Shown here: piece after piece, positions 33,010 through 41,544 of the stretch
Layout of the letters: each line of letters begins with the position of its first letter
Numbering within the stretch: position 1 is the stretch's first letter
DNA from: Gammaproteobacteria bacterium
GTDB lineage: Bacteria > Pseudomonadota > Gammaproteobacteria > Thiotrichales > Thiotrichaceae
Length of the DNA: 64,000 nt
NCBI GenBank assembly: GCA_018822845.1
Contig: JAHJJD010000018.1
Location: 16,607-80,606, forward strand
Reading direction: 5' to 3'
Made by a program: the position numbers and the translations under genes
Notes under the pieces: model-generated
What the model saw: the letters and a program-made list of their open reading frames with translations, nothing else
Database searches by the model: none
Told to the model about the DNA's origin: nothing

Positions 33010-33186
33010 AGGGTTCTACCAATAGGGCAGTTCATCAAGGAAGGTATGATAGCGGAAAGCTGCGCCGGGGTGTAGACAAGCAAGGTTTTGCAGCACCAAT
33101 CGTTTCACACGGCAACAACCTGGCGTGCGTCACAGCATCGCCATCCATGCTAGACTCAGACCATAACCAGCAAACAGGCCACCATG

Positions 33187-34731
33187 ATGCAGCGTAAATC
33201 CTTACCCATCGGTATCCAGACCTTCAGCGAAATCCGCCGTGACAATCACTATTACGTGGACAAAACCCATCTGGCGGTAAAACTGGCAAAAGAAGGCAAG
33301 CATTATTTCCTCTCCCGCCCGCGCCGCTTCGGCAAAAGCCTGTTCCTCGACACCCTGAAAGAGCTGTTTGAAGGCAATGAACCGCTGTTTGAGGGGCTGG
33401 CCGCACATGCCCCATGGGACTGGTCAGTGCAATACCCGGTGCTACGCTTCAGCTTCGGCGGGGAAAACTTCCGCCAAACGCCAAGCCTGGCAGAAACGCT
33501 GGACGCACAACTGAGCCTGCTTGAAAATCAGCACCAGTTACCTCCGCAGGTGGATAGCATCAGTGGCCGGTTTGCCCACCTGATTGTGAAACTCCGCCAG
33601 CAAGCCGGACAGCCTGTAGTTATCCTGATCGACGAGTACGACAAACCAATTCTGGATGCCTTACTGCACCCTGAGGTCGCCCGCGCCAACCGTGATTTCC
33701 TGCGCGGGTTTTACGGTAACCTCAAGGACTACGACGCACACATCAAATTCAGCTTCCTGACCGGCGTCAGCAAGTTTTCCAAGGTAAGCCTGTTTTCCGG
33801 CCTGAACAACCTGTATGACCTGACCCTGATCCCCGATTACGCCACCATTTGCGGCTATACCGATCGTGATATTGATACAGTGTTCGCGCCGGAATTACCG
33901 GGGCTGGAACGGAACGCCATCCGCGAGTGGTACAACGGCTATCACTGGCTGGGGGAAGGCGTCTACAACCCGTTCGACATTTTGCAGCTATTCAAAAACC
34001 GTACTTTCAAAAGCTACTGGTTTGAAACCGGCACGCCTGCCTTTCTGGTGGATTTACTGTTTCAGCGCCAAATCCCTAGCCTGAAACTGGGGGAAATGAT
34101 CAGCAGCAGCAGCATGTTATCCAGCTTTGATGTGGACGACATCACCACCGAAGCCTTGTTATTCCAGACCGGCTACCTGACCATTCTCAAGGAGGAAAAT
34201 CTCGGCGGACAATACTTCTACACACTCGGCTACCCCAACCGCGAGGTGTACCAAAGCCTGAATGAATCACTGTTATCGGTACTGGTAAAAGACAAATCGC
34301 AACAGGCACTGCAAAGCACGCAATTATATCGCCTGCTGGAAGCCAATAATTTTGAGGGGCTGAAACAGCTTTTCCACCGCTTCTTTGCCAGCATCCCCTA
34401 CCACTGGTATACCAAAAACGACATCCAGAGCTACGAAGGTTATTACGCCTCGGTGTTTTATTCCTACTTCGCCTCCCTAGGATTAAAGGTAACACTGGAG
34501 GACATTACCAACCTCGGGCGCATTGACATGACCCTGACGTTTAATGGGCAGGTATATATCTTTGAATTCAAAGTGGTGGAAATGGCACCTGAAGGCAAGG
34601 CATTGCAACAGATCAAGGACAAGGCATACGCGGACAAATACCGTGGCCTGCAACAACCCATTCACTTGATCGGGGTGGAATTCAGCAAGGCATCACGCAA
34701 TATCGTCGGGTTTGTGGTGGAACAGGCATGA
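33187..34731 (+). CDS. AAA-ATPase-like protein with a C-terminal PD-(D/E)XK nuclease domain
   Basis: LPIGIQTF, YVDKT, RPRRFGKS Walker A, ILIDEYDKP Walker B, YNPF; GRIDM...IFEFK nuclease motif. Confidence 0.9.
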   Translation: MQRKSLPIGIQTFSEIRRDNHYYVDKTHLAVKLAKEGKHYFLSRPRRFGKSLFLDTLKELFEGNEPLFEGLAAHAPWDWSVQYPVLRFSFGGENFRQTPSLAETLDAQLSLLENQHQLPPQVDSISGRFAHLIVKLRQQAGQPVVILIDEYDKPILDALLHPEVARANRDFLRGFYGNLKDYDAHIKFSFLTGVSKFSKVSLFSGLNNLYDLTLIPDYATICGYTDRDIDTVFAPELPGLERNAIREWYNGYHWLGEGVYNPFDILQLFKNRTFKSYWFETGTPAFLVDLLFQRQIPSLKLGEMISSSSMLSSFDVDDITTEALLFQTGYLTILKEENLGGQYFYTLGYPNREVYQSLNESLLSVLVKDKSQQALQSTQLYRLLEANNFEGLKQLFHRFFASIPYHWYTKNDIQSYEGYYASVFYSYFASLGLKVTLEDITNLGRIDMTLTFNGQVYIFEFKVVEMAPEGKALQQIKDKAYADKYRGLQQPIHLIGVEFSKASRNIVGFVVEQA

Positions 34732-34824
34732 TGCCGTAATGGATGACGACGAAGCCAATCTGGGGTAATGTTCAGCAAACAGGTCGCTTATGGCCTGAAT
34801 TATTTTGGCTAACAGGCTTGTCGC

Positions 34825-34938
34825 ATGAGCTACGAATATTCCGAAGACGCCTTGGTGGAGGAAGCCGCCGAAGAAATCCTGCTGGATTATCAGTGGAAGG
34901 TGGTAAAAGCCTGGCATAGCGAAACCTTTTCCCTGTGA
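34825..34938 (+). pseudogene. N-terminal relic (37 codons) of a type I restriction enzyme R subunit (HsdR-like)
   Basis: Manual translation MSYEYSEDALVEEAAEEILLDYQWKVVKAWHSETFSL* resembles the (Y)SEDxLVEx(P/A)A...L..W.....ETF start typical of HsdR. It ends just before the START gene's stop. Recognised from memory, not by search. Confidence 0.6.
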
Positions 34939-34944
34939 ATCCCG

Positions 34945-35604
34945 CTACTTCACCTCAATTGACCTGATCTCTTCCTCACTGAATCTGGCGTCGCGGTATT
35001 TGGGTTCTTTTACCACCTCGCGCAGGTTTTGCAGGGTCTTGAAAACCGATTCGGCCATATGGTCATTGCTGGGGCCATTAAATGGCGCTTGCGGATTGGC
35101 CTGGATCTGGTAGCTGACCCGTACATGACCTGGGCTGACCTGCTGGAAAACCCATGAACCCTGCAAATCCAGCACGCGGGTACGCCCCGGCTGCACTGGC
35201 GCATGATTTTCCCTGCCCCTCAGGTTGATAACGATAGTGCCTTGCTTGCGCTTGTAGCGAACTGTGGAATAGATATACATATCCCGGTCTTGCAGCGGGA
35301 AAGGCGAATCCAGCACGCTGTATGCAATACGTTCAGATGGGTTCAGGGTAGCCACCAGCCGCCCTTCCTTGCAGGCATGCACCCAGCGCGGACAGGCTTC
35401 GACATCCTTAAGCAACGCCACCAGCGCATCCAGCGTCGTTTCGGTTTCGACTACGCCTCTGGTGGTTTCATGTGGGGAGCCGGTTTGCTGCTGTTGTACC
35501 AGAATACCATCCTCATTCTGCCTGACCACCCAACCGCCTTCATCGGCATATGTCAGGTTCAGCGATAACAGCAACAGGCAACAGACGGCAATGAACGTTT
35601 TCAT
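34945..35604 (-). CDS. Exported START-domain lipid-binding protein
   Basis: Signal peptide, W(V)VRQNEDGI, CPRWVHAC, SPFPLQDRDM and GSWVF...VSYQ; GAAGGAG RBS before ATG 35604. Confidence 0.8.
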   Translation of the reverse strand: MKTFIAVCCLLLLSLNLTYADEGGWVVRQNEDGILVQQQQTGSPHETTRGVVETETTLDALVALLKDVEACPRWVHACKEGRLVATLNPSERIAYSVLDSPFPLQDRDMYIYSTVRYKRKQGTIVINLRGRENHAPVQPGRTRVLDLQGSWVFQQVSPGHVRVSYQIQANPQAPFNGPSNDHMAESVFKTLQNLREVVKEPKYRDARFSEEEIRSIEVK

Positions 35605-35717
35605 GATGACTCCTTCTGCATTGCGCAGGAATAACTGCGAATACCGGGATTTATCATTCATGAGAACACATTGCTGTAAGCGGGTTCCGACGATATGTCG
35701 GACTCTTGATACAAGTG

Positions 35718-35924: not shown

Positions 35925-36878
35925 TCACAACATCTGAGCTGCCGCTTCTGCTTTCAGCCAATCCACAAAAGCCTCCACTGCGGGCTGGTTCGCCTCTACA
36001 GTCTGCGGGCGCATCACGTAATAAGCCTGTTCCAGCGGCATTGGCAGATCAAACGGAATGCACAGCTTCCCGGCCTCAATATCCAGTTGCGCCAGATGAT
36101 TGAGGCTGAGCAACACGCCCTGCCCGTCCACCGCTGCATCCAGTGCCAACGCTACGTGATTAAAATGTAATCCCCGGTTAGCCTTGACGCCCTCAATACC
36201 CTGCAATTCCAGCCACATTGACCAGTCCGGACGCCCGACATAAGCGGTATCGTCATGCAGCAAGGTATGAAACACCAGATCTTCGGGCTTTTTCAACGGA
36301 TGCGGGTGCGAGTCGCTAACCAGTTCAGGGCTGCATAATGGCACAACCATCACGGGAAACAGCTTTTCCTCCCGGACACTGGATAAACGGCTGGAGCCGA
36401 AGCGGATGATGACATCAATGCCATGCTGAAGAAAAAAGCTTTCCATGCTCTTTTTTTCCAGCGGAAAATCAGCGTCCACCAGGCTTGCGTCACTGCTGAT
36501 CTGCATATCGATGTCAGGGTGGTGCTGGGAAAAGCGGTGCAGGCGCGGCACCAGCCATTTGGAAGCAAAGGAAGGCGCAGTCCAGACCGTGATACTTTCC
36601 GCTGGTCTTGCACCCCGCATCAGGCTGACCGCTTCCGCCAGACTGTCGAACCCTGCCCGTAGCTTGGGCAGGGCAGCTTCCGCCCCCCCAGTCAGGACAA
36701 GTCTCCTGCTCTTGCGCTCAATCAGGGTTAAGCCCAGGAAATCCTCCAGATATTTGATCTGGTGACTGATGGCTGCACGGGTCACATTGAGTTCTTCCGC
36801 CGCCCTGGTAAAGCTCAGGTGGCGAGTAACAGCCTCAAAGGCGCGCAAGGCGTTCAACGGTGGTAATTGTTGTGACAT
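35925..36878 (-). CDS. GcvA-family LysR transcriptional regulator
   Basis: LPPLNALRAFEAVTRHLSFTRAAEELNVT HTH, SFASKWLVPRLHRF, LLHDD...W..W and AAVDGQGV. Confidence 0.9.
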   Translation of the reverse strand: MSQQLPPLNALRAFEAVTRHLSFTRAAEELNVTRAAISHQIKYLEDFLGLTLIERKSRRLVLTGGAEAALPKLRAGFDSLAEAVSLMRGARPAESITVWTAPSFASKWLVPRLHRFSQHHPDIDMQISSDASLVDADFPLEKKSMESFFLQHGIDVIIRFGSSRLSSVREEKLFPVMVVPLCSPELVSDSHPHPLKKPEDLVFHTLLHDDTAYVGRPDWSMWLELQGIEGVKANRGLHFNHVALALDAAVDGQGVLLSLNHLAQLDIEAGKLCIPFDLPMPLEQAYYVMRPQTVEANQPAVEAFVDWLKAEAAAQML

Positions 36879-36940
36879 GATATGATGATGTCTTGGCTGT
36901 ATTTATCGGCCAACAGCTTAGCACCATTCACGACATTGCG

Positions 36941-37360
36941 ATGACTATTTACCAACAGATTTTAAGCATCCCGACACAGGGACGCGGCACTTACAACATT
37001 ACCGCCAAAGTGGATGACAGTATCCACCAGAGTGGTATCAAGACGGGCTTGTGCCATGTATTCATCCATCACACCAGCGCATCGCTGATTATCACCGAAA
37101 ACGCCGACCCGGATGTGCGCCGCGACCTGGAAACCATCCTCAAACGCCTTGCTCCTGACGGCGACCCCAGCTACCGCCACACGGATGAGGGGATCGATGA
37201 TATGTCAGCACATGTGCGCTGTATGCTAACCAATACGGATGTAACTATCCCCGTCACACGCGGGCAAAGCGCATTGGGTACGTGGCAGGGCTTGTATCTC
37301 TACGAACACCGGGCAGGACGCTTCCAGCGCAAGCTGACCATAACCATTTCTGGGGAATGA
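36941..37360 (+). CDS. yjbQ: YjbQ/UPF0047 family protein
   Basis: HTSASL, NADPDVRRDL, HTDEGIDDMSAH and LGTWQGLYLYEHR. Confidence 0.9.
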   Translation: MTIYQQILSIPTQGRGTYNITAKVDDSIHQSGIKTGLCHVFIHHTSASLIITENADPDVRRDLETILKRLAPDGDPSYRHTDEGIDDMSAHVRCMLTNTDVTIPVTRGQSALGTWQGLYLYEHRAGRFQRKLTITISGE

Positions 37361-38755
37361 TCATTTCCCCCGCACCTTCTCGCGGTAGAACAGGTTCCAG
37401 GTATCAAACGGGTAAATCTTGCCGTTCGGCTCGACGAAATGCGTACACGACCGTTTTACCGAGCCGATGTCAAAATCGTATTTGTCCATGAACGCCATGA
37501 TGACGATGCGGAATACATTGTCGTAAGTCAGCCCCTCACTCTGGATGCGCGGCAAGCAACACAGCATGGTTTGCAGGTTATCGGTGGTCTGTTCACTGCA
37601 CGCATCCAGCGAAAATAGTTTGAGGAAAGCATCTTTCAATCCGGCACTTTTTTCAAAGGTAATGGTGTTGTCCACGCCCTTGAGCAGCTCTTCACGCGGC
37701 AGCAAACCCGTTACCGGCACGATTTCCCCGCCCATTTTAATGCCGTAGCCGATAGAAATGTTTTCCGGGTGACACGGCAGCGGGATCATGTCGGTATCGC
37801 CAAACGGGTTGTCGGCCTCGACGATGCGGGTGCGGATTTCACTCAGGGTAATCCTGTGTTGGCTTCGACTCGCTCCCTGAGCAGAGTCGAAGGGAACCTC
37901 ATTGCGTCCTGCATCTTGTACCGGCTGGAAAGTAATGCCACGCACGCACTTCCACTGTTGGGCAAACTGGATGATCTCGCCGATTTCATCGTCATTCACC
38001 CCCTTGCGGATCACGCACACCAGCGTAGTGGAAATATTGTGCTGTTCCAGCTTTTCCAGCGCTTGCTGGCGGATATTGCGCATATCCTGCCCGCGAATAT
38101 TTTGTAGCGCCGCAGCCTTGAGCGAATCGAATTGCAAGTAGACCTCGAAACCCGGCTTGAGGCTGGCGAGGTCTTCCACCAAATGTGGGTCACGCGCAAT
38201 GCGGATGCCATTGGTATTGAGCATCAAATGGCGGATCGGGCTGGCCTTCAGGCGGCGTAAAATATCCATCAACTGCGGATGCAAGGTCGGTTCGCCACCA
38301 GACACTTGCACCAGATCGGGCTGCTGTTCGCTGGCCAGCAGGGTTTGCAACATGATTTCAAGGTCTTCCATGCTGCGTGGATTACCCATGCCGGGCGCAG
38401 AATTGGCGAAACATACCGGACAGTGCATATTACATTCGTCGATAATTTCAAACAGCGCCAGACAGGAATGCTGTTCATGATCAGGACACAGGCCGCAGTC
38501 GTGCGGGCAACCCTGCTTGATTTCGGTCTGGAAAGCCTCCGGCATGTCGCCCGGTTTCAGGTATTCCTTGCAGCGCTTGTAATAGTCGATGTCGGTGGAA
38601 ATCAGGGTCTTTTGCACGCCGTGTTCCGCGCAACGCTTCTGGTAATACACATTGCCGTGCTGGAACAGGATTTTGGCAGGCACGACCGTGAGGCATTCTT
38701 CACACAGTGATTGTGTCTGGCCGTAGAAAATGTAGGGACGGGCTTTGTTGCTCAA
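37361..38755 (-). CDS. Radical SAM enzyme of the Tes/GDGT-MAS (MJ0619)-like family
   Basis: N-terminal CEEC...CAEH metal site, GCPHDCGLCPDH auxiliary motif, CNMHCPVC radical-SAM triad, VSGGEPTLHP, LNTNG, VYLQFD, C-terminal KRSCTHF...YPFD. The TTG start at 38755 overlaps the upstream TGA (TTGA coupling). Confidence 0.85.
   Translation of the reverse strand: MSNKARPYIFYGQTQSLCEECLTVVPAKILFQHGNVYYQKRCAEHGVQKTLISTDIDYYKRCKEYLKPGDMPEAFQTEIKQGCPHDCGLCPDHEQHSCLALFEIIDECNMHCPVCFANSAPGMGNPRSMEDLEIMLQTLLASEQQPDLVQVSGGEPTLHPQLMDILRRLKASPIRHLMLNTNGIRIARDPHLVEDLASLKPGFEVYLQFDSLKAAALQNIRGQDMRNIRQQALEKLEQHNISTTLVCVIRKGVNDDEIGEIIQFAQQWKCVRGITFQPVQDAGRNEVPFDSAQGASRSQHRITLSEIRTRIVEADNPFGDTDMIPLPCHPENISIGYGIKMGGEIVPVTGLLPREELLKGVDNTITFEKSAGLKDAFLKLFSLDACSEQTTDNLQTMLCCLPRIQSEGLTYDNVFRIVIMAFMDKYDFDIGSVKRSCTHFVEPNGKIYPFDTWNLFYREKVRGK
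37861..37897 (+). repeat. REP-like element (GCTCCCTGAGCAGAGTCGAAGGGAAC plus a partial inverted copy) in frame inside the radical SAM gene
   Basis: Two mismatches from the reconstructed 26-nt element at 15122-15171; encodes VPFDSAQGASRS on the minus strand. Confidence 0.75.
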
Positions 38756-39084
38756 TGGAAATTGCTCCCTGACAGACTCATCAGTATCACCACACAACTA
38801 CCCAGTGCCAGAAAATACATCAGCCCCGTTCCACCCAACAGCATCAGCATGGATTTGGAAAAAGGCTTGGCCGTATCCAGAAACCACTTCAGTGACACCC
38901 CGTGGATTGCCGCCTGAATCAATGCTGGTAGCAGCAAAATACCCATGGAATCTGTCAAGGTTGCACCCAACAATATAATGACCGGAGTCAGCAAAATAAC
39001 CCACAGCAACCAGAAAATTACTTTCTGCCCTACTGTGCGGGGCTCGACTGGGGAAGCAACTGTTTCGACGGAATTGTCAGCCAT
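38752..39084 (-). CDS. Small multi-pass membrane protein with a C-terminal LALGSC motif
   Basis: 110 aa with about three hydrophobic segments. Start overlaps the Lgt-like stop by 8 nt and stop overlaps the radical SAM start. Confidence 0.75.
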   Translation of the reverse strand: MADNSVETVASPVEPRTVGQKVIFWLLWVILLTPVIILLGATLTDSMGILLLPALIQAAIHGVSLKWFLDTAKPFSKSMLMLLGGTGLMYFLALGSCVVILMSLSGSNFH

Positions 39085-39778
39085 GAGTTTTCCTTGTTGT
39101 TAGCAGCATCCGCCCAGCATAGCCGATCAGCAACAAACACAACAACTGGAACAGATTGATAGAGTAGAAAACTGAGGAATAGGGCTTGATGAATTCCCAA
39201 ATAAAACGTTGCCACGAGTAAACCATAACAAACACATAAAAGCCCTGGGCCTGCCAAAACAACGGATTGCGCGGATAACGCATTAGCAAGACAGTCAGAA
39301 ATACCAGCATGGTCAGACTTTCATACAATTGCACCGGATGCCGCTTTACTCCATCACCGAAATCCACACCCCACGGCAGGCTGGTTTCCGTACCATAGGT
39401 GAAATCCGGCAGGCCTGCGAGGAAGCAGCCTACCCGCCCAACTGCAATCAACATGATCAGACCGGGGACGAAATACAGGCCAGTGGATCGGCGGATTCCG
39501 GCGAAGTGCTTGAAGGTTTCCGCCGCCACAATCGCACCAAACACACCACCCAACATACTTTTGGCGATACCGTCTTGCCCCGACAGGTGCAGATTGAGCG
39601 TACCGAACAACGTACTGCCGACAACCAACCCCAGCAGCAAAGCCAGCAGATAATAATGATGCTGAGAGGTCTCTGTAATCCCCGCCGGACGCTGCAATCC
39701 ATACTTGCGCCGGAACCATAGGCTCACCAATACGCCACTTGCCAGCGCCAACAAATCAAAAATGAAGTGAAGCAGCAT
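39077..39778 (-). CDS. Atypical prolipoprotein diacylglyceryl transferase (Lgt-family paralogue)
   Basis: GRVGCFLAG, LPWGVDFGDG..RHPVQLYES and RFIWEFIK motifs of the Lgt family. The usual GGxSxHGG segment reads IAKSMLGG. Confidence 0.85.
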   Translation of the reverse strand: MLLHFIFDLLALASGVLVSLWFRRKYGLQRPAGITETSQHHYYLLALLLGLVVGSTLFGTLNLHLSGQDGIAKSMLGGVFGAIVAAETFKHFAGIRRSTGLYFVPGLIMLIAVGRVGCFLAGLPDFTYGTETSLPWGVDFGDGVKRHPVQLYESLTMLVFLTVLLMRYPRNPLFWQAQGFYVFVMVYSWQRFIWEFIKPYSSVFYSINLFQLLCLLLIGYAGRMLLTTRKTHG

Positions 39779-39822
39779 GAATCACGCCAACTGGAAATGG
39801 ATAAGTTTGAGTTTTCCCCATA

Positions 39823-39975
39823 TCAGCGGTTGGCAGGCTGAGGAGGCGTTTCCGCAGAAGCAGGCGGCTCGACCGGACGTGAATTATTACTATATGGCAA
39901 ACCGGAACAACCCAGCGCAATCCAGACAGCAACAACTCCGGCGGCAACCCAGACAAAGTGTTTGATATTAACCAT
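39823..39975 (-). CDS. Unannotated 50-aa lipoprotein-like peptide
   Basis: MVNIKHFVWVAAGVVAVWIALG-CSGLPYSNNSRPVEPPASAETPPQPANR*: basic N-region, hydrophobic h-region, Cys23 after IALG, and GGAGG 7 nt upstream. Below the ORF-track length cut-off. Confidence 0.7.
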   Translation of the reverse strand: MVNIKHFVWVAAGVVAVWIALGCSGLPYSNNSRPVEPPASAETPPQPANR

Positions 39976-39981
39976 GACGCA

Positions 39982-39999
39982 CCCTCCTTTTCAGGAGAG
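39982..39999 (-). promoter_or_regulatory. Hairpin CUCUCCU-GAAA-AGGAGGG sequestering the Shine-Dalgarno of the 50-aa ORF
   Basis: 7-bp stem with a GNRA tetraloop; the 3' arm is the RBS. Confidence 0.5.
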
Positions 40000-40069
40000 T
40001 ATATATGTAAAATGCCTGCCGGACACTTAAACCAGACAGGCAAGCCCAATCAACACACTCACAACAAAA

Positions 40070-40369
40070 CTAGAAAGAAATATAAGAAAGCAGGCCGACC
40101 TGAGCCAGATAAGGCAGCACAATGACGCTCAGCCCCAACCAGCGCAACATGCCATTCATGGAACAGGTAGCCTTGATAAACTGGAACCACAATGTCATCA
40201 GTAATAAAATTTGTGAAACAGCTACCGACGTTGATAATGCCCGAGCTGAAGCATCAATGGATAAAATGGGATTTGAAAAGAAATTAACAACGACAAACAA
40301 ACTACCTAAAAGCCACAATGCAATAAAAGTGGCTTTTTCCCCAAACGAATAATGATAACGGTAAAACAT
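40070..40369 (-). CDS. Small hydrophobic membrane protein (hypothetical)
   Basis: 99 aa, about three TM segments, GAGGG RBS, AT-rich codons. Confidence 0.6.
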   Translation of the reverse strand: MFYRYHYSFGEKATFIALWLLGSLFVVVNFFSNPILSIDASARALSTSVAVSQILLLMTLWFQFIKATCSMNGMLRWLGLSVIVLPYLAQVGLLSYISF

Positions 40370-40638
40370 CTGACCCTCTCTCGACTACGCTAACACCTTC
40401 ACAACAGCGCGGCCCCAGGACAGGACTATTCAAAGCAGGAACAATTTTGAATCAAATAGATAAAACCCGTGCAGCATGCCCATCCACCAACATCCCCTGG
40501 AAACAACCTGCCCTTGATTCAAAGCCAGTTCAGTGCTTCACTCCAGCCTCACCCCAGCCCATACATTCATTTTACATTAATTTATTCTATATTCAATCAA
40601 TATAATATAATTGGTTGATTTTTATTCAAAAACCCGTA

Positions 40639-41544
40639 TCAATAAGCCAGAAGACGTTTGACGCTTAAAACACCCTTTTCCAGTTGTGCCAGACCAATAA
40701 ATTCACCCACCTCTGTGTAAATTTTCATTAACTGACAATCAGTTTGTTCTGGATAGCACAATCGCTGCCCCTGCCGCAAACGCAAGATCTGGGCCTCATC
40801 CAGAACCATGGAAGGCAATCCGGTCAGAGCCTCGTCCATTGGCATCAAAGCAGCATCCAGCACCTCCCGCCCCTGTTCCGCCAATGCTCTTAATGCTTCC
40901 AGCGAATACATCACATGCCCTTCAAAAGGGGAAACCGATTCGCGCCGCAACATGGTGACATACGCGCCACATCCAATAGCTTCACCAATATCTTCCACTA
41001 GCGAACGGATATAAGTACCCTTGCTGCACACTACATCCAGCGTCAGGGTATTTTCAGTGCGCTCCAGCACTGTCAGGGAGTGAATAGTCACAGCGCGCGC
41101 TTCACGCTCCACTTCCACGCCTTTGCGGGCAAGCTTGTAGAGCGGCTGACCATCCTTCTTCAAAGCGGAATACATGGGTGGAACCTGCCGGATTCCCCCC
41201 CGAAAACCATTCAAAATGGTTTCCAGTTCCACAGTGGGAAGTGGTGGTATCGGGCGGGGATTAATCATTTCACCCTCGGCATCGCCAGTCGTACTGACCA
41301 TGCCCAGCGTAGCTATCGTCACATAATGCTTGTCGGAATCCAGCAGGAAAGCAGAGACTTTGGTCGCCTCACCAAAACAGACCGGCAACATGCCAGTAGC
41401 CAGCGGGTCAAGGCTGCCGGTATGCCCTGCCTTTTCCGCTGCAAACAGAAAACGGGCATCCTGTAATGCCTTGTTGCTGGACACGCCCAAGGCTTTATCC
41501 AGCAGCAGGATACCGTTTAATGGACGGAATTTACGACGCCCCAA
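40639..41544 (-). CDS. truB: tRNA pseudouridine(55) synthase
   Basis: KAGHTGSLDPLATG, QVPPMYSALK and CSKGTYIRSL. Confidence 0.97.
   Translation of the reverse strand: MGRRKFRPLNGILLLDKALGVSSNKALQDARFLFAAEKAGHTGSLDPLATGMLPVCFGEATKVSAFLLDSDKHYVTIATLGMVSTTGDAEGEMINPRPIPPLPTVELETILNGFRGGIRQVPPMYSALKKDGQPLYKLARKGVEVEREARAVTIHSLTVLERTENTLTLDVVCSKGTYIRSLVEDIGEAIGCGAYVTMLRRESVSPFEGHVMYSLEALRALAEQGREVLDAALMPMDEALTGLPSMVLDEAQILRLRQGQRLCYPEQTDCQLMKIYTEVGEFIGLAQLEKGVLSVKRLLAY

What the first reader, a model, noticed from the sequence alone, without database searches (positions are those of the whole stretch)
37361..40369. Tes-like radical SAM + Lgt paralogue + small lipoprotein/membrane proteins: a candidate lipid cross-linking or lipoprotein-tailoring system
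Seen: five co-oriented genes (99-aa membrane protein, 50-aa lipoprotein-like peptide, Lgt-like transferase, 110-aa membrane protein, radical SAM); the last three are coupled by 8-nt and 4-nt overlaps. The radical SAM has the N-terminal CxxC...CxxH site and the GCPxDCGLCxxH motif of the archaeal tetraether synthase family. Known: Tes/GDGT-MAS (MJ0619) forms C-C bonds between unactivated lipid tails; Lgt transfers diacylglyceryl from phosphatidylglycerol to a lipobox Cys; bacterial Tes homologues are largely uncharacterised. Inference: the operon lipidates a dedicated small protein and then joins or cyclises acyl tails, producing macrocyclic or membrane-spanning anchors, or uses the protein as a lipid carrier for making membrane-spanning lipids. 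I know of no such pathway described in Gammaproteobacteria.
Basis: partly seen in the sequence, partly recalled or inferred. Interest (0 to 1): 0.9.

Follow-up and report, generated by a model that had tools for sequence, protein, structure and literature searches.

The report
Lgt paralogue, Tes-like enzyme, cysteine microproteins
This Thiothrix-like bacterium carries a tightly coupled gene set (an extra, altered copy of the enzyme that puts lipid anchors on proteins, a relative of the archaeal enzyme that welds lipid tails together, and small membrane proteins with one conserved cysteine) that recurs in many bacterial phyla, has no published description I could find, and probably makes an unknown lipid-protein modification.

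Summary
Five co-oriented minus-strand genes lie at 37361-40369, with 8-nt and 4-nt overlaps and the stated Cys/His motifs.

The core is a conserved three-part module:
- **Lgt paralogue.** It keeps R143, R239, E202, Y235 and E243. It always has Y26H and N146C, and it lacks H103.
- **Radical SAM enzyme.** It has the full GDGT-MAS/Tes architecture (Foldseek TM 0.81 to 7TOM, all metal-site residues kept). It scores below the Tes and TrsS family cut-offs and sits in a separate bacterial clade.
- **Small 2-3-TM proteins.** Here these are the 110-aa and 99-aa paralogues. Family members carry a lipobox-like Cys motif at the outer end of an in-to-out helix.

Evidence for coupling:
- The Lgt paralogue adjoins the radical SAM gene in 88 of 89 loci with enough flank, across at least seven phyla.
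- The two genes occur in exactly the same 11 of 401 sampled Pseudomonadota genomes.
- At least 57 protein clusters are Lgt-rSAM fusions.
- The microprotein HMMs hit almost only next to the pair.

The 50-aa lipoprotein is a genus-level accessory.

Function is untested. The most likely reading is S-lipidation of the microprotein Cys plus radical tailoring of lipid tails.

The parts
37361..38755 (-). Radical SAM enzyme of the Tes/GDGT-MAS superfamily (464 aa from TTG 38755; an alternative TTG at 38797 gives 478 aa). It has a rubredoxin-like Zn/Fe ribbon, an N-terminal auxiliary 4Fe-4S site, a CX3CX2C radical SAM site and C-terminal conserved cysteines.
   Evidence: PF23545 and PF04055. NCBIfam TrsS 294 bits (cut-off 490) and Tes 275 bits (cut-off 450). 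7TOL matches at E 3e-61. C18, C21, C42, H45, C83, C87, C90, H93, H96, C98, C108, C112, C115, C328, C399, C400, C437 and H439 are invariant in 91/91. AF2 pLDDT 82; Foldseek 7TOM E 1e-37, TM 0.81.
38752..39084 (-). 110-aa, 3-TM microprotein with motif Cys97 (LALGSC-VVILMSLSGSNFH) at the outer end of the last helix. It is the most likely acceptor or partner of the enzymes. It overlaps the Lgt paralogue gene by 8 nt and the radical SAM gene by 4 nt.
   Evidence: Family HMMs hit only next to the enzyme pair. Cys column 61/62, with Gly at -2 in 59/61. An independent HMM finds it genome-wide at E 3e-5. No Pfam or NCBIfam match. Only 9 close relatives, all unnamed.
39077..39778 (-). Lgt paralogue (233 aa, 7 predicted TM helices, no large head domain). 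It keeps R143, H196, P197, Y201, E202, Y235, R239 and E243. It has Y26H, N146C and R246K, an acidic residue at the E151 equivalent, and no H103.
   Evidence: PF01790 E 4.5e-21. Below the TIGR00544 cut-off. Residue counts over 84 paralogues. Invariant H4, R115, C118, R191 and K198. The family profile hits only 5AZB in the PDB, E 8.8e-13. AF2 pLDDT 94 with seven helices. A canonical Lgt lies elsewhere in the genome.
39823..39975 (-). 50-aa small lipoprotein-like peptide (signal peptide, lipobox IALGC, Pro-rich tail). It is a genus-level accessory of the module.
   Evidence: AAGGAGG Shine-Dalgarno sequence 7 nt upstream. Homologues with WLALGC-S-LPY-NN-RPVEPP lie directly upstream of the module in G001, G009 and G023, the last at a different genomic site. 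Absent from the module in other phyla.
40070..40369 (-). 99-aa, 3-TM paralogue of the microprotein family. It lacks the motif Cys but has a conserved Cys in KATCS at the inner end of helix 3.
   Evidence: An independent HMM finds it at E 3e-4 genome-wide. A 60%-identical homologue sits in the same position in G001.
40370..40638 (-). AT-rich intergenic region between truB and the module. It is the likely promoter region of the five-gene unit.
   Evidence: GC 0.43-0.45. Two sigma-70-like matches at 40629-40602 and 40596-40569, but the total number of matches in the region is not above the shuffled expectation.

Best explanation
This is a dedicated membrane module that modifies lipid and protein together. 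It has three coupled parts.

1. The small 3-TM proteins insert N-in/C-out. Their last helix plus the G-[GS]-C motif then mimics a lipoprotein signal peptide with a lipobox, and the Cys sits near the outer leaflet. The 110-aa protein carries motif Cys97. The 99-aa paralogue lacks the motif Cys.

2. The Lgt paralogue has its remodelled active site in the same outer half of the membrane. It still has the residues that hold the phosphatidylglycerol diacylglyceryl/phosphate group. It most likely transfers a glyceryl-lipid unit to that Cys as a thioether.

3. The cytoplasmic radical SAM enzyme sits on the cytoplasmic C-terminus of the Lgt paralogue, and in many lineages is fused to it. It has all four metal sites of GDGT-MAS. 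It most likely uses 5'-deoxyadenosyl radicals and its C-terminal auxiliary cluster to functionalise an unactivated carbon of a lipid tail, by C-C coupling or cyclisation, or possibly by C-S bond formation. It could act on the donor lipid before transfer or on the protein-bound lipid.

Shown: the gene anatomy, the conserved residues, the fold, and the linkage, co-occurrence and fusion.

Inferred: the topology, the acceptor Cys, the lipid donor, the radical chemistry and the product.
For: Linkage:
- The Lgt paralogue is adjacent to the radical SAM gene in 88 of 94 loci. Five of the six exceptions are cut by a contig end.
- The loci come from Alpha- and Gammaproteobacteria, Bacillota, Bacteroidota, Planctomycetota, Acidobacteriota, Gemmatimonadota and Obscuribacterales.
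- More distant homologues at 38-48% identity also have an Lgt paralogue and small proteins beside them.

Co-occurrence:
- In 401 evenly drawn genomes of the phylum, both genes occur in the same 11 genomes and are adjacent in all 11. The other 390 have neither (Fisher p 1e-21).
- In 41 relatives: both 12, radical SAM gene only 2 (75%-complete assemblies, gene at a contig edge), Lgt paralogue only 0, neither 27.

Fusion: at least 57 clusters of single proteins carry PF01790, PF23545 and PF04055 together.

Lgt paralogue: R143, R239, E202, Y235, E243 and H196-P197 are kept in 84/84 or nearly so. Seven helices, pLDDT 94.

Radical SAM enzyme: all GDGT-MAS metal-site residues are invariant. TM 0.81 to 7TOM, against 0.37 for the next radical SAM enzyme.

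Microproteins:
- 94 + 17 HMM hits lie adjacent on the same strand, against 1 elsewhere in the flanks.
- They occur in 1-4 tandem, diverged copies.
- One Cys column is present in 61/62, with Gly at -2 in 59/61 and a Leu-rich stretch before it.
- In this genome the family occurs only at this locus.
Against: - H103 of the HGGL motif is essential in E. coli Lgt and is proposed to bind the lipobox peptide. It is replaced by V, L, E or A in all paralogues. N146 is replaced by Cys. The chemistry may therefore differ from Lgt.
- The published view of the M. smegmatis member with the same signature (MSMEG_5408) is 'presumed low Lgt activity'.
- The motif Cys and the Lgt-type active site lie near the outer leaflet, while the radical SAM domain is cytoplasmic. 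How one lipid is handled by both is unexplained.
- The middle part of the radical SAM enzyme (residues ~306-412) corresponds to the region between the two stretches that align to GDGT-MAS. It does not align to GDGT-MAS by sequence and is modelled with low confidence.
- The equivalent of the labile Met439 ligand is kept in only 36/91 family members.
- Exceptions to linkage: one locus (L081) has no adjacent Lgt paralogue, and one genome (G013) has the two genes 810 kb apart. A few loci show no recognisable microprotein. The 99-aa paralogue lacks the motif Cys.
- There are no expression, lipid or protein mass data.
Confidence: 0.55

Rival explanations
1. A lipid-only pathway. The Lgt paralogue binds or presents a phospholipid, or helps move one head group across the membrane, for the Tes-like enzyme. 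The pair makes a modified membrane lipid such as a macrocyclic or membrane-spanning diacyl lipid. The small proteins are scaffolds, regulators or chaperones, not substrates.
For: The radical SAM enzyme has the complete GDGT-MAS architecture. The two enzymes are the universally conserved and fused parts, whereas microproteins vary in number, position and sequence and were not recognised at a few loci. Loss of H103 argues against peptide-Cys alkylation. Bacterial Tes homologues have been proposed as makers of membrane-spanning lipids.
Against: The single conserved Cys in a lipobox-like context, in the orientation of a lipoprotein signal peptide, is hard to explain for a mere scaffold. Tandem diverged copies look like substrates. 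No other lipid-biosynthesis gene is conserved nearby. Many host genera are not known, to my knowledge, for membrane-spanning lipids.
Confidence: 0.2
2. A RiPP-like lipopeptide pathway. The small proteins are precursors. The radical SAM enzyme modifies the peptide itself, for example with a thioether or other cross-link at or near the Cys. The Lgt paralogue lipidates it, and cleavage (for example by signal peptidase II) releases a short lipopeptide from the C-terminal tail.
For: Multiple tandem, fast-evolving small genes sit next to a radical SAM enzyme. In the 3-TM type the Cys lies 4-16 residues from the C-terminus, with G, S or A at -1 as signal peptidase II prefers. A recurrent C-terminal NFH/NVH/HIH ending appears in this window and in Bacteroidota.
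Against: The enzyme is not of the SPASM/twitch peptide-maturase type, and its closest structure is a lipid enzyme. No protease, leader-recognition domain or exporter is conserved nearby. In Alphaproteobacteria the Cys is in the first helix with 40-60 residues after it, and -1 is often Leu. The Cys-bearing segment is predicted to face away from the cytoplasmic enzyme.
Confidence: 0.12
3. The Lgt paralogue has become an acyl-transfer or deacylating enzyme. It would use the family-specific His4 / Cys118 / Asp-Glu125 set (replacing Y26, N146 and E151) as a catalytic triad. It would remodel acyl chains of a glycerolipid that the radical SAM enzyme then modifies, or has already modified.
For: The three substitutions are invariant or nearly so and occur together. 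The same combination is reported for a divergent Lgt subgroup. In E. coli Lgt, Y26, N146 and E151 all line the central cavity next to the bound lipid's ester groups. A thioether enzyme intermediate would be a dead end, whereas a thioester is transferable (chemical reasoning).
Against: R143 and R239 and the rest of the diacylglyceryl pocket are retained, which equally fits Lgt-type chemistry. This reading does not explain the conserved microprotein Cys by itself.
Confidence: 0.08
4. Nothing special: a redundant second Lgt for ordinary lipoproteins that happens to lie next to an unrelated radical SAM gene, or a pterin methylase as the old 'HMPTM' annotation implies.
For: Database names given by sources include '7,8-dihydro-6-hydroxymethylpterin dimethyltransferase'. 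A 50-aa classical lipoprotein lies in the operon. Residual lipoprotein labelling in M. smegmatis lacking its main Lgt has been attributed to the second homologue.
Against: Perfect co-occurrence, adjacency across at least seven phyla and at least 57 fusion clusters exclude a chance neighbourhood. The pterin methylase assignment of MJ0619 could not be corroborated by the authors of the GDGT-MAS structure.
Confidence: 0.03

Closest known systems
Lgt, phosphatidylglycerol:prolipoprotein diacylglyceryl transferase (E. coli; PDB 5AZB/5AZC; Pfam PF01790; TIGR00544)
   Same: Same Pfam family. It is the only PDB hit of the paralogue profile (E 8.8e-13). Seven TM helices with the same predicted N-out/C-in topology. 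R143, H196-P197, Y201, E202, Y235, R239 and E243 are conserved. The likely partner Cys sits in a lipobox-like context after a hydrophobic helix.
   Different: 233 aa against 291 aa, with the periplasmic head domain reduced to a short beta region. H103 of HGGL is lost. The paralogue has Y26H, N146C and R246K in all members, and a paralogue-specific cytoplasmic motif (E87, K90, S-T-G100). It scores below the TIGR00544 cut-off. It is always paired with, or fused to, a radical SAM enzyme. The genome has a separate canonical Lgt.
GDGT-MAS / Tes, archaeal tetraether lipid synthase (MJ0619; PDB 7TOL/7TOM; NCBIfam NF045702)
   Same: The whole-protein fold (TM 0.81, 28% identity). The rubredoxin-like CX2CX20CX2H site with identical spacing. 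The N-terminal auxiliary cluster motif GCPxDCGLCxxH. The CX3CX2C site. Conserved C-terminal cysteines, and in this window the equivalent of the labile Met ligand.
   Different: 275 bits against a cut-off of 450, with only the first ~300 and last ~50 residues aligning by sequence. It falls in a separate bacterial clade. The host has no archaeal lipids to my knowledge. It is obligately linked to an Lgt paralogue and Cys microproteins, which archaeal Tes is not reported to have. The Tes model rings only in archaeal control genomes.
MSMEG_5408, second Lgt homologue of Mycobacterium smegmatis (Tschumi et al. 2012, as cited in PMC13251419 and bioRxiv 10.1101/2025.01.07.631728)
   Same: It is reported to carry Y26H and N146C, the signature that is invariant in this paralogue family. 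It is non-essential and its function is unknown.
   Different: The literature treats it as a weak or redundant Lgt. The papers I could read mention no link to a radical SAM enzyme or to small Cys proteins. I did not examine its genomic neighbourhood myself.
TrsS radical SAM (seleno)protein (NCBIfam NF045646)
   Same: It is the best-scoring NCBIfam model and matches over the full length (residues 27-470).
   Different: 294 bits against a cut-off of 490. There is no in-frame TGA or selenocysteine here. TrsS itself is uncharacterised, being only listed in a selenoprotein review.
Mss, bacterial membrane-spanning lipid synthase of Thermotoga (Sahonero-Canavesi et al. 2022)
   Same: It is a bacterial radical SAM enzyme that couples two acyl tails tail-to-tail. 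That shows such chemistry exists on bacterial fatty-acyl lipids.
   Different: It is not a Tes homologue according to its authors. It is found in anaerobes, and no Lgt paralogue or microprotein partner is described.

Membership tests
Lgt (prolipoprotein diacylglyceryl transferase) | Match to Pfam PF01790 above the gathering score | tested here: met
   75.7 bits against 24.9. The profile of 45 paralogues hits only 5AZB in the PDB, E 8.8e-13.
Lgt (prolipoprotein diacylglyceryl transferase) | Equivalog-level score (TIGR00544 / NF000778) | tested here: not met
   33.9 bits against 118.9, and 44.7 against 334. The genome's canonical Lgt scores 282 bits on PF01790 against 74.5 for this copy.
Lgt (prolipoprotein diacylglyceryl transferase) | Essential R143 and R239 and the diacylglyceryl pocket (E202, Y235, E243) | tested here: met
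   R143 84/84, R239 84/84, E202 82/84, Y235 83/84, E243 as E or D in 84/84. Roles from PMC4728403.
Lgt (prolipoprotein diacylglyceryl transferase) | H103 of the HGGL motif (essential; proposed peptide-binding and thiol-activating site) | tested here: not met
   V 33, L 24, E 16, A 8, and no His, in 84 paralogues. G104 is kept. H103 essentiality.
Lgt (prolipoprotein diacylglyceryl transferase) | Signature motif G142-R-L-G-N146-F-I-N-G-E151-L-W-G154, and Y26 | tested here: not met
   N146 is Cys in 84/84. Y26 is His (H4 invariant). There is a three-residue insertion, with an acidic D/E near the E151 position.
Lgt (prolipoprotein diacylglyceryl transferase) | Seven-TM fold like 5AZB | tested here: inconclusive
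   The AF2 model has pLDDT 94 and seven helices. Foldseek against the PDB returned no significant hit and did not list 5AZB.
Lgt (prolipoprotein diacylglyceryl transferase) | Transfers diacylglyceryl from phosphatidylglycerol to a lipobox Cys | not testable with these tools
   Only candidate acceptors were found: the motif Cys of the microproteins and the lipobox of the 50-aa protein.
Tes / GDGT-MAS tetraether synthase | NCBIfam NF045702 equivalog cut-off | tested here: not met
   274.8 bits against 450, in two stretches. The model passes its cut-off only in M. jannaschii, S. acidocaldarius and M. acetivorans controls, and in none of 8 bacterial genomes that carry the module.
Tes / GDGT-MAS tetraether synthase | Four metal sites: rubredoxin-like CX2CX20CX2H, N-terminal cluster (3 Cys + His), CX3CX2C, and a C-terminal auxiliary cluster | tested here: met
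   C18, C21, C42 and H45 with identical spacing; C83, C87, C90 and H93; C108, C112 and C115; all 91/91. C328, C399, C400 and C437 are invariant, but their assignment to the C-terminal cluster is inferred. The Met439 equivalent (M420) is present here but in only 36/91.
Tes / GDGT-MAS tetraether synthase | Overall fold | tested here: met
   Foldseek 7TOM E 1.3e-37, TM 0.81/0.76 over ~500 columns. The next hit has TM 0.37.
Tes / GDGT-MAS tetraether synthase | Orthology (same clade as archaeal Tes) | tested here: not met
   In the FastTree on 281 columns, the Lgt-linked core clade is separate from the MAS fragment and from a Tes-like paralogue in the same acidobacterial genome that has no Lgt neighbour. 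Support values were not inspected, and only a fragment of MAS was available.
Tes / GDGT-MAS tetraether synthase | C-C coupling of two saturated lipid tail termini | not testable with these tools
   No biochemical or lipid data.
TrsS radical SAM (seleno)protein | NF045646 cut-off and selenocysteine | tested here: not met
   293.8 bits against 490. The ORF is open with no in-frame TGA.

The most novel reading that the evidence does not exclude
The module makes a new kind of post-translational modification. A small membrane protein would be thioether-linked through its motif Cys to a glycerolipid whose tails have been radical-coupled, giving a macrocyclic lipid or one joined to a lipid of the opposite leaflet (in effect a protein-anchored membrane-spanning lipid). 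Alternatively, the Tes-like enzyme would forge a direct C-S bond between a lipid tail and a cysteine. The fused Lgt-rSAM enzymes would then be machines that work on one lipid from both faces of the membrane.
Probability: 0.3. Interest if true: 0.9.

Novelty: categorically new. Interest (0 to 1): 0.8.

Why it matters
- Bacterial Tes homologues have been known since 2022 but have no assigned function. They have been invoked, without proof, as sources of brGDGT and other membrane-spanning lipids used in palaeoclimate proxies. This analysis shows that a large bacterial branch of that superfamily is bound to an Lgt paralogue and Cys microproteins. That redirects the question from bulk membrane lipids towards a protein-linked lipid, and gives a compact three- to five-gene cassette that can be tested directly.
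- It offers an explanation for the puzzling 'second Lgt' with Y26H/N146C noted in M. smegmatis and in recent Lgt surveys.
- If the product is a lipid cross-linked on a protein, it would be a new protein lipidation chemistry in bacteria. It would also be a new use of radical C(sp3) chemistry.

Tried and rejected
- **phmmer of the Lgt paralogue against the PDB** found no Lgt. Only the family profile did.
- **Foldseek of the high-confidence Lgt-paralogue model** gave no significant hit. I treat this as a limit of the method on helical bundles, not as evidence.
- **Search for further conserved neighbours** by all-against-all clustering of flank ORFs found none. The apparent extra families were antisense ORFs in high-GC DNA or lineage-specific synteny.
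- **Promoter and terminator scans** were not above the shuffled expectation.
- **TrsS literature** gave only a table entry.
- **Tschumi et al. 2012 (PMC3416517)** is not held, so the MSMEG_5408 statements come from citing papers.
- **Twenty nearest 50%-identity representatives** were scanned to find labelled Tes or TrsS members for the tree. None passes either cut-off. The tree was therefore anchored only on the MAS fragment printed.
- **Rejected: the 50-aa lipoprotein as the dedicated substrate.** It is restricted to some genomes of this genus.
- **Rejected: the 'HMPTM' pterin methylase annotation.** The authors of the GDGT-MAS structure could not corroborate it.

Full report
**1. Observation**

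The window comes from a Thiothrix-like gammaproteobacterium. Close homologues of the radical SAM protein are named Thiothrix, Thiolinea or Thiotrichaceae.

On the minus strand, directly downstream of nusA-infB-rbfA-truB, lie five co-oriented ORFs:
- 40070-40369 (99 aa)
- 39823-39975 (50 aa)
- 39077-39778 (233 aa)
- 38752-39084 (110 aa)
- 37361-38797 (478 aa from the first TTG)

The 233-aa and 110-aa genes overlap by 8 nt. The radical SAM gene most likely starts at the TTG at 38755, for two reasons:
- An AGGGAG Shine-Dalgarno sequence lies 9 nt upstream.
- Relatives align only from residue 14-15.

Pfam assigns LGT (PF01790, E 4.5e-21) to the 233-aa protein. It assigns the HMPTM-type zinc ribbon (PF23545) plus Radical_SAM (PF04055) to the last protein. 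The three small proteins match nothing in Pfam or NCBIfam.

**2. The radical SAM enzyme**

Its best NCBIfam models are TrsS (294 bits, cut-off 490) and Tes (275 bits, cut-off 450), so it belongs to neither equivalog.

Against solved structures, the only strong sequence hit is GDGT-MAS (7TOL, E 3e-61). The match covers residues 13-306 and 412-462.

Lloyd et al. 2022 (PMC9433317) define the GDGT-MAS cofactor sites as follows:
- a rubredoxin-like site, C9X2C12X20C33X2H36
- an N-terminal cluster bound by three Cys and a His
- the CX3CX2C site
- a C-terminal cluster with a labile Met ligand

In 91 family members, these residues are invariant:
- C18, C21, C42 and H45, with the same spacing as the rubredoxin-like site
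- C83, C87, C90, H93, H96 and C98
- C108, C112 and C115
- C328, C399, C400, C437 and H439

The Met equivalent (M420) is present here but in only 36/91.

An AlphaFold2 model built on 46 sequences has pLDDT 82, with residues ~364-407 at low confidence. It superposes on 7TOM/7TOL with E 1e-37 and TM 0.81. The next radical SAM structure reaches only TM 0.37.

The enzyme therefore shares the whole architecture of the tetraether synthase. It is still not an orthologue:
- The Tes model passes its cut-off only in three archaeal control genomes, and in none of eight bacterial genomes that carry this module.
- One acidobacterial genome has both a fuller Tes-like paralogue without an Lgt neighbour and the Lgt-linked one.
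- In a FastTree on the shared 281 columns, the Lgt-linked sequences form their own core clade. This clade is apart from the MAS fragment. It is also apart from a clade of methyltransferase-, nucleotidyltransferase/HD- and DUF5714-fused relatives.
- None of the twenty nearest 50%-identity representatives reaches the Tes or TrsS cut-off.

**3. The Lgt paralogue**

The genome has a canonical Lgt on another contig, scoring 282 bits on PF01790 against 74.5 bits for this copy.

I aligned the paralogue with E. coli Lgt and 84 family members.
- Kept: R143 (84/84), H196, P197, Y201, E202, Y235, R239 (84/84) and E243 (as E or D).
- Changed in all members: N146 to Cys, R246 to Lys, and Y26 to His.
- An acidic residue sits near the E151 position.
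- H103 of the HGGL motif is replaced by V, L, E or A.

In the E. coli structure paper (PMC4728403):
- R143, E202, Y235 and R239 form the pocket for the diacylglyceryl glycerol.
- N146 and E151 belong to the same hydrogen-bond network.
- Y26 touches the sn-2 ester.
- H103 is essential and is proposed to bind the lipobox peptide.

The lipid-binding half of the active site is therefore retained, and the acceptor-handling half is remodelled.

A 2026 survey of Lgt (PMC13251419) noted a distant subgroup with N146C and E151C/D. [quoted passage not shown] It does not mention radical SAM enzymes.

The family profile hits only 5AZB in the PDB (E 8.8e-13). The AlphaFold2 model has pLDDT 94 and seven helices, with a short beta region where the head domain would be. 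Foldseek failed to retrieve any significant match.

The positive-inside rule gives the same N-out/C-in topology as Lgt. This places the conserved residues in the outer half of the membrane and the C-terminus in the cytoplasm. The exception is a paralogue-specific cytoplasmic motif (E87, K90, S-T-G100). This topology is my inference from the sequence.

**4. Linkage of the two enzymes**

- **Adjacency.** A pattern scan of one genome per species returned 599 relatives. The best 80 loci come from Alpha- and Gammaproteobacteria, Bacillota, Bacteroidota, Planctomycetota, Acidobacteriota, Gemmatimonadota and Obscuribacterales. I added the loci from the genus. An HMM of the paralogue then finds it next to the radical SAM gene in 88 of 94 loci, usually overlapping it. 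Five of the six exceptions have less than 330 bp of upstream DNA.
- **Distant homologues.** Homologues at 38-48% identity also have an adjacent LGT gene, in varying order. One at 41% identity instead has a methyltransferase neighbour.
- **Co-occurrence in the phylum.** In 401 genomes drawn evenly from the phylum (212 genera), the radical SAM family and the paralogue occur in exactly the same 11 genomes. They are adjacent in all 11. The probability by chance is 1e-21, ignoring phylogeny.
- **Co-occurrence among relatives.** Among 41 relatives the counts are both 12, radical SAM gene only 2 (75%-complete assemblies with the gene at a contig edge), paralogue only 0, and neither 27.
- **An unlinked case.** One complete genome (G013) has both genes 810 kb apart, so co-occurrence survives loss of adjacency.
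- **Fusions.** At least 57 protein clusters are single polypeptides with LGT followed by the zinc ribbon and the radical SAM domain. They include Tepidisphaeraceae and Verrucomicrobiota.

**5. The small proteins**

Halothiobacillus has one ~108-aa membrane protein upstream of the pair, and Methylovulum has four in tandem.

An HMM built only from those five proteins finds exactly two ORFs among all 54,553 stop-to-stop ORFs of this genome. They are the 110-aa protein (E 3e-5) and the 99-aa protein (E 3e-4).

In other phyla, 70-120-aa proteins with 2-4 predicted TM helices lie immediately downstream of the radical SAM gene or between the two enzyme genes.

Clustering gives two families:
- one with 72 proteins from 47 loci
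- one with 16 proteins from 15 loci

Their HMMs hit 94 and 17 ORFs adjacent on the same strand, and only one ORF elsewhere in the up to 6-kb flanks on either strand. By HMM, 77 of 94 loci have at least one copy. Most of the rest show one by eye or lack flanking DNA.

One alignment column is Cys in 61/62. Around it:
- Gly at -2 in 59/61
- Gly or Leu at -1
- Pro, Ser or Thr at -3
- a Leu-rich stretch before it

The second family has [AS]-[AT]-C-[FS]-G.

The Cys is either in the first helix (hairpin type, Alphaproteobacteria) or 4-16 residues from the C-terminus (3-TM type, as here). In both types, basic residues precede the helix. The helix therefore runs from inside to outside like a lipoprotein signal peptide, with the Cys near its outer end (inference from sequence).

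In the window, the 110-aa protein carries the motif (LALGSC, Cys97) and ends in NFH, like several Bacteroidota members. The 99-aa paralogue lacks this Cys but has a conserved Cys in KATCS.

**6. The 50-aa protein and the local context**

The 50-aa ORF has a strong Shine-Dalgarno sequence and a lipobox that fits the PROSITE rule. It has homologues directly upstream of the module in three other genomes of the genus. One of these lies at a different chromosomal site. It is absent from the module elsewhere, so I treat it as a genus-level accessory and a possible second substrate.

Within the genus, the module is present in about half of the genomes and at different locations.

Between this genome and G001, the radical SAM protein is 93-95% identical. 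TruB is 75% identical and the Lgt paralogue 75%. The radical SAM protein is 87% identical to that of Halothiobacillus and 84% to that of Methylovulum. This points to very strong constraint and probably horizontal transfer.

**7. Mechanism**

My best reading is given in the Best explanation section. The evidence shows that the three components are functionally coupled. It does not show what they make.

The main difficulty is geometric:
- The motif Cys and the Lgt-type site face the outer leaflet.
- The radical SAM domain is cytoplasmic.
- The fusions nevertheless tie that domain to the cytoplasmic end of the Lgt paralogue.

Two readings fit this geometry:
- The radical enzyme tailors the donor lipid in the inner leaflet, and the product is handed to the transferase.
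- The complex acts on a lipid that spans the membrane.

A second open point is the invariant His/Cys/acidic trio that replaces Y26, N146 and E151. It could mean acyl-transfer chemistry through a thioester rather than Lgt chemistry.

**8. Literature and earlier notes**

Full-text searches found papers on Tes, Mss, Gms and Lgt, but none that links an Lgt paralogue to a radical SAM enzyme or to small Cys proteins. Bacterial Tes homologues are described as uncharacterised candidates for membrane-spanning lipid synthesis.

Earlier AI notes of this scan report the same module in at least eight other genomes and reach similar readings. I treated them as leads only.

**9. Limits**

- Genes in the fetched loci were called with a crude ORF finder.
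- Start codons of small genes are uncertain.
- Topology is inferred by eye from charge distribution.
- The tree used only a fragment of GDGT-MAS, and branch support was not examined.
- There is no transcript, protein or lipid evidence.

Noticed in passing
window 33184-35661: A 515-aa AAA-ATPase_like + PD-(D/E)XK (PDDEXK_9) protein and a 238-aa secreted-looking START-domain (lipid-binding fold) protein lie between purL and the LysR gene. In the closest relative (G001) LysR lies about 340 bp from purL, so these two genes look like a local insertion.
   Followed up: partly
window 36893-37360 (+) and 35925-36878 (-): A YjbQ/UPF0047 gene lies convergent to the radical SAM gene. A YjbQ-family gene is found in the same position in G001, G009 and G023. 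In G023 it is only 43% identical and at another chromosomal site, so it may travel with the module in this genus.
   Followed up: partly
window 37361-38755 versus 40639-41544: The radical SAM protein is 93-95% identical between this genome and G001, while TruB next door is 75% identical. The same enzyme is 87% identical in Halothiobacillus diazotrophicus and 84% in Methylovulum psychrotolerans. This suggests unusually strong constraint and/or recent horizontal transfer among Gammaproteobacteria.
   Followed up: partly
window 40000-41000: GC content drops to 0.43-0.45 with strong skew over the 99-aa gene and the intergenic region after truB, against 0.52-0.60 around it.
   Followed up: no
L014:3867-5309 (Methylovulum psychrotolerans): Four tandem, diverged ~110-aa microprotein genes, all ending in a GGC motif, precede the Lgt paralogue. 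This is the largest array seen.
   Followed up: partly
G013:C1:1276447-1277814 and G013:C1:2089338-2090033: In this complete genome of the same genus, the radical SAM gene and the Lgt paralogue are 810 kb apart. A 203-aa protein of unknown family lies upstream of the radical SAM gene.
   Followed up: partly
P0261, P0263, P0238 (representative proteins); L117: Other branches of the same radical SAM superfamily are fused or adjacent to class I methyltransferases, to a MobA-like nucleotidyltransferase plus HD domain, or to DUF5714. The superfamily has several undescribed functional contexts besides the Lgt-linked one.
   Followed up: partly
L120:3001-5408: In one metagenomic locus the module is followed by an ArsP_1 permease and a Sulf_transp/ICMT-PEMT fusion (isoprenylcysteine carboxyl methyltransferase family). 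The microprotein there ends in Cys-Tyr, reminiscent of CaaX-type processing.
   Followed up: no
L108 (G041:C10:93312-94871): Paracidobacterium acidisoli carries a second, 696-aa Tes-like paralogue that matches the Tes model over its full length (328 bits, still below the cut-off). No Lgt paralogue lies within the 1.5-kb flanks.
   Followed up: partly
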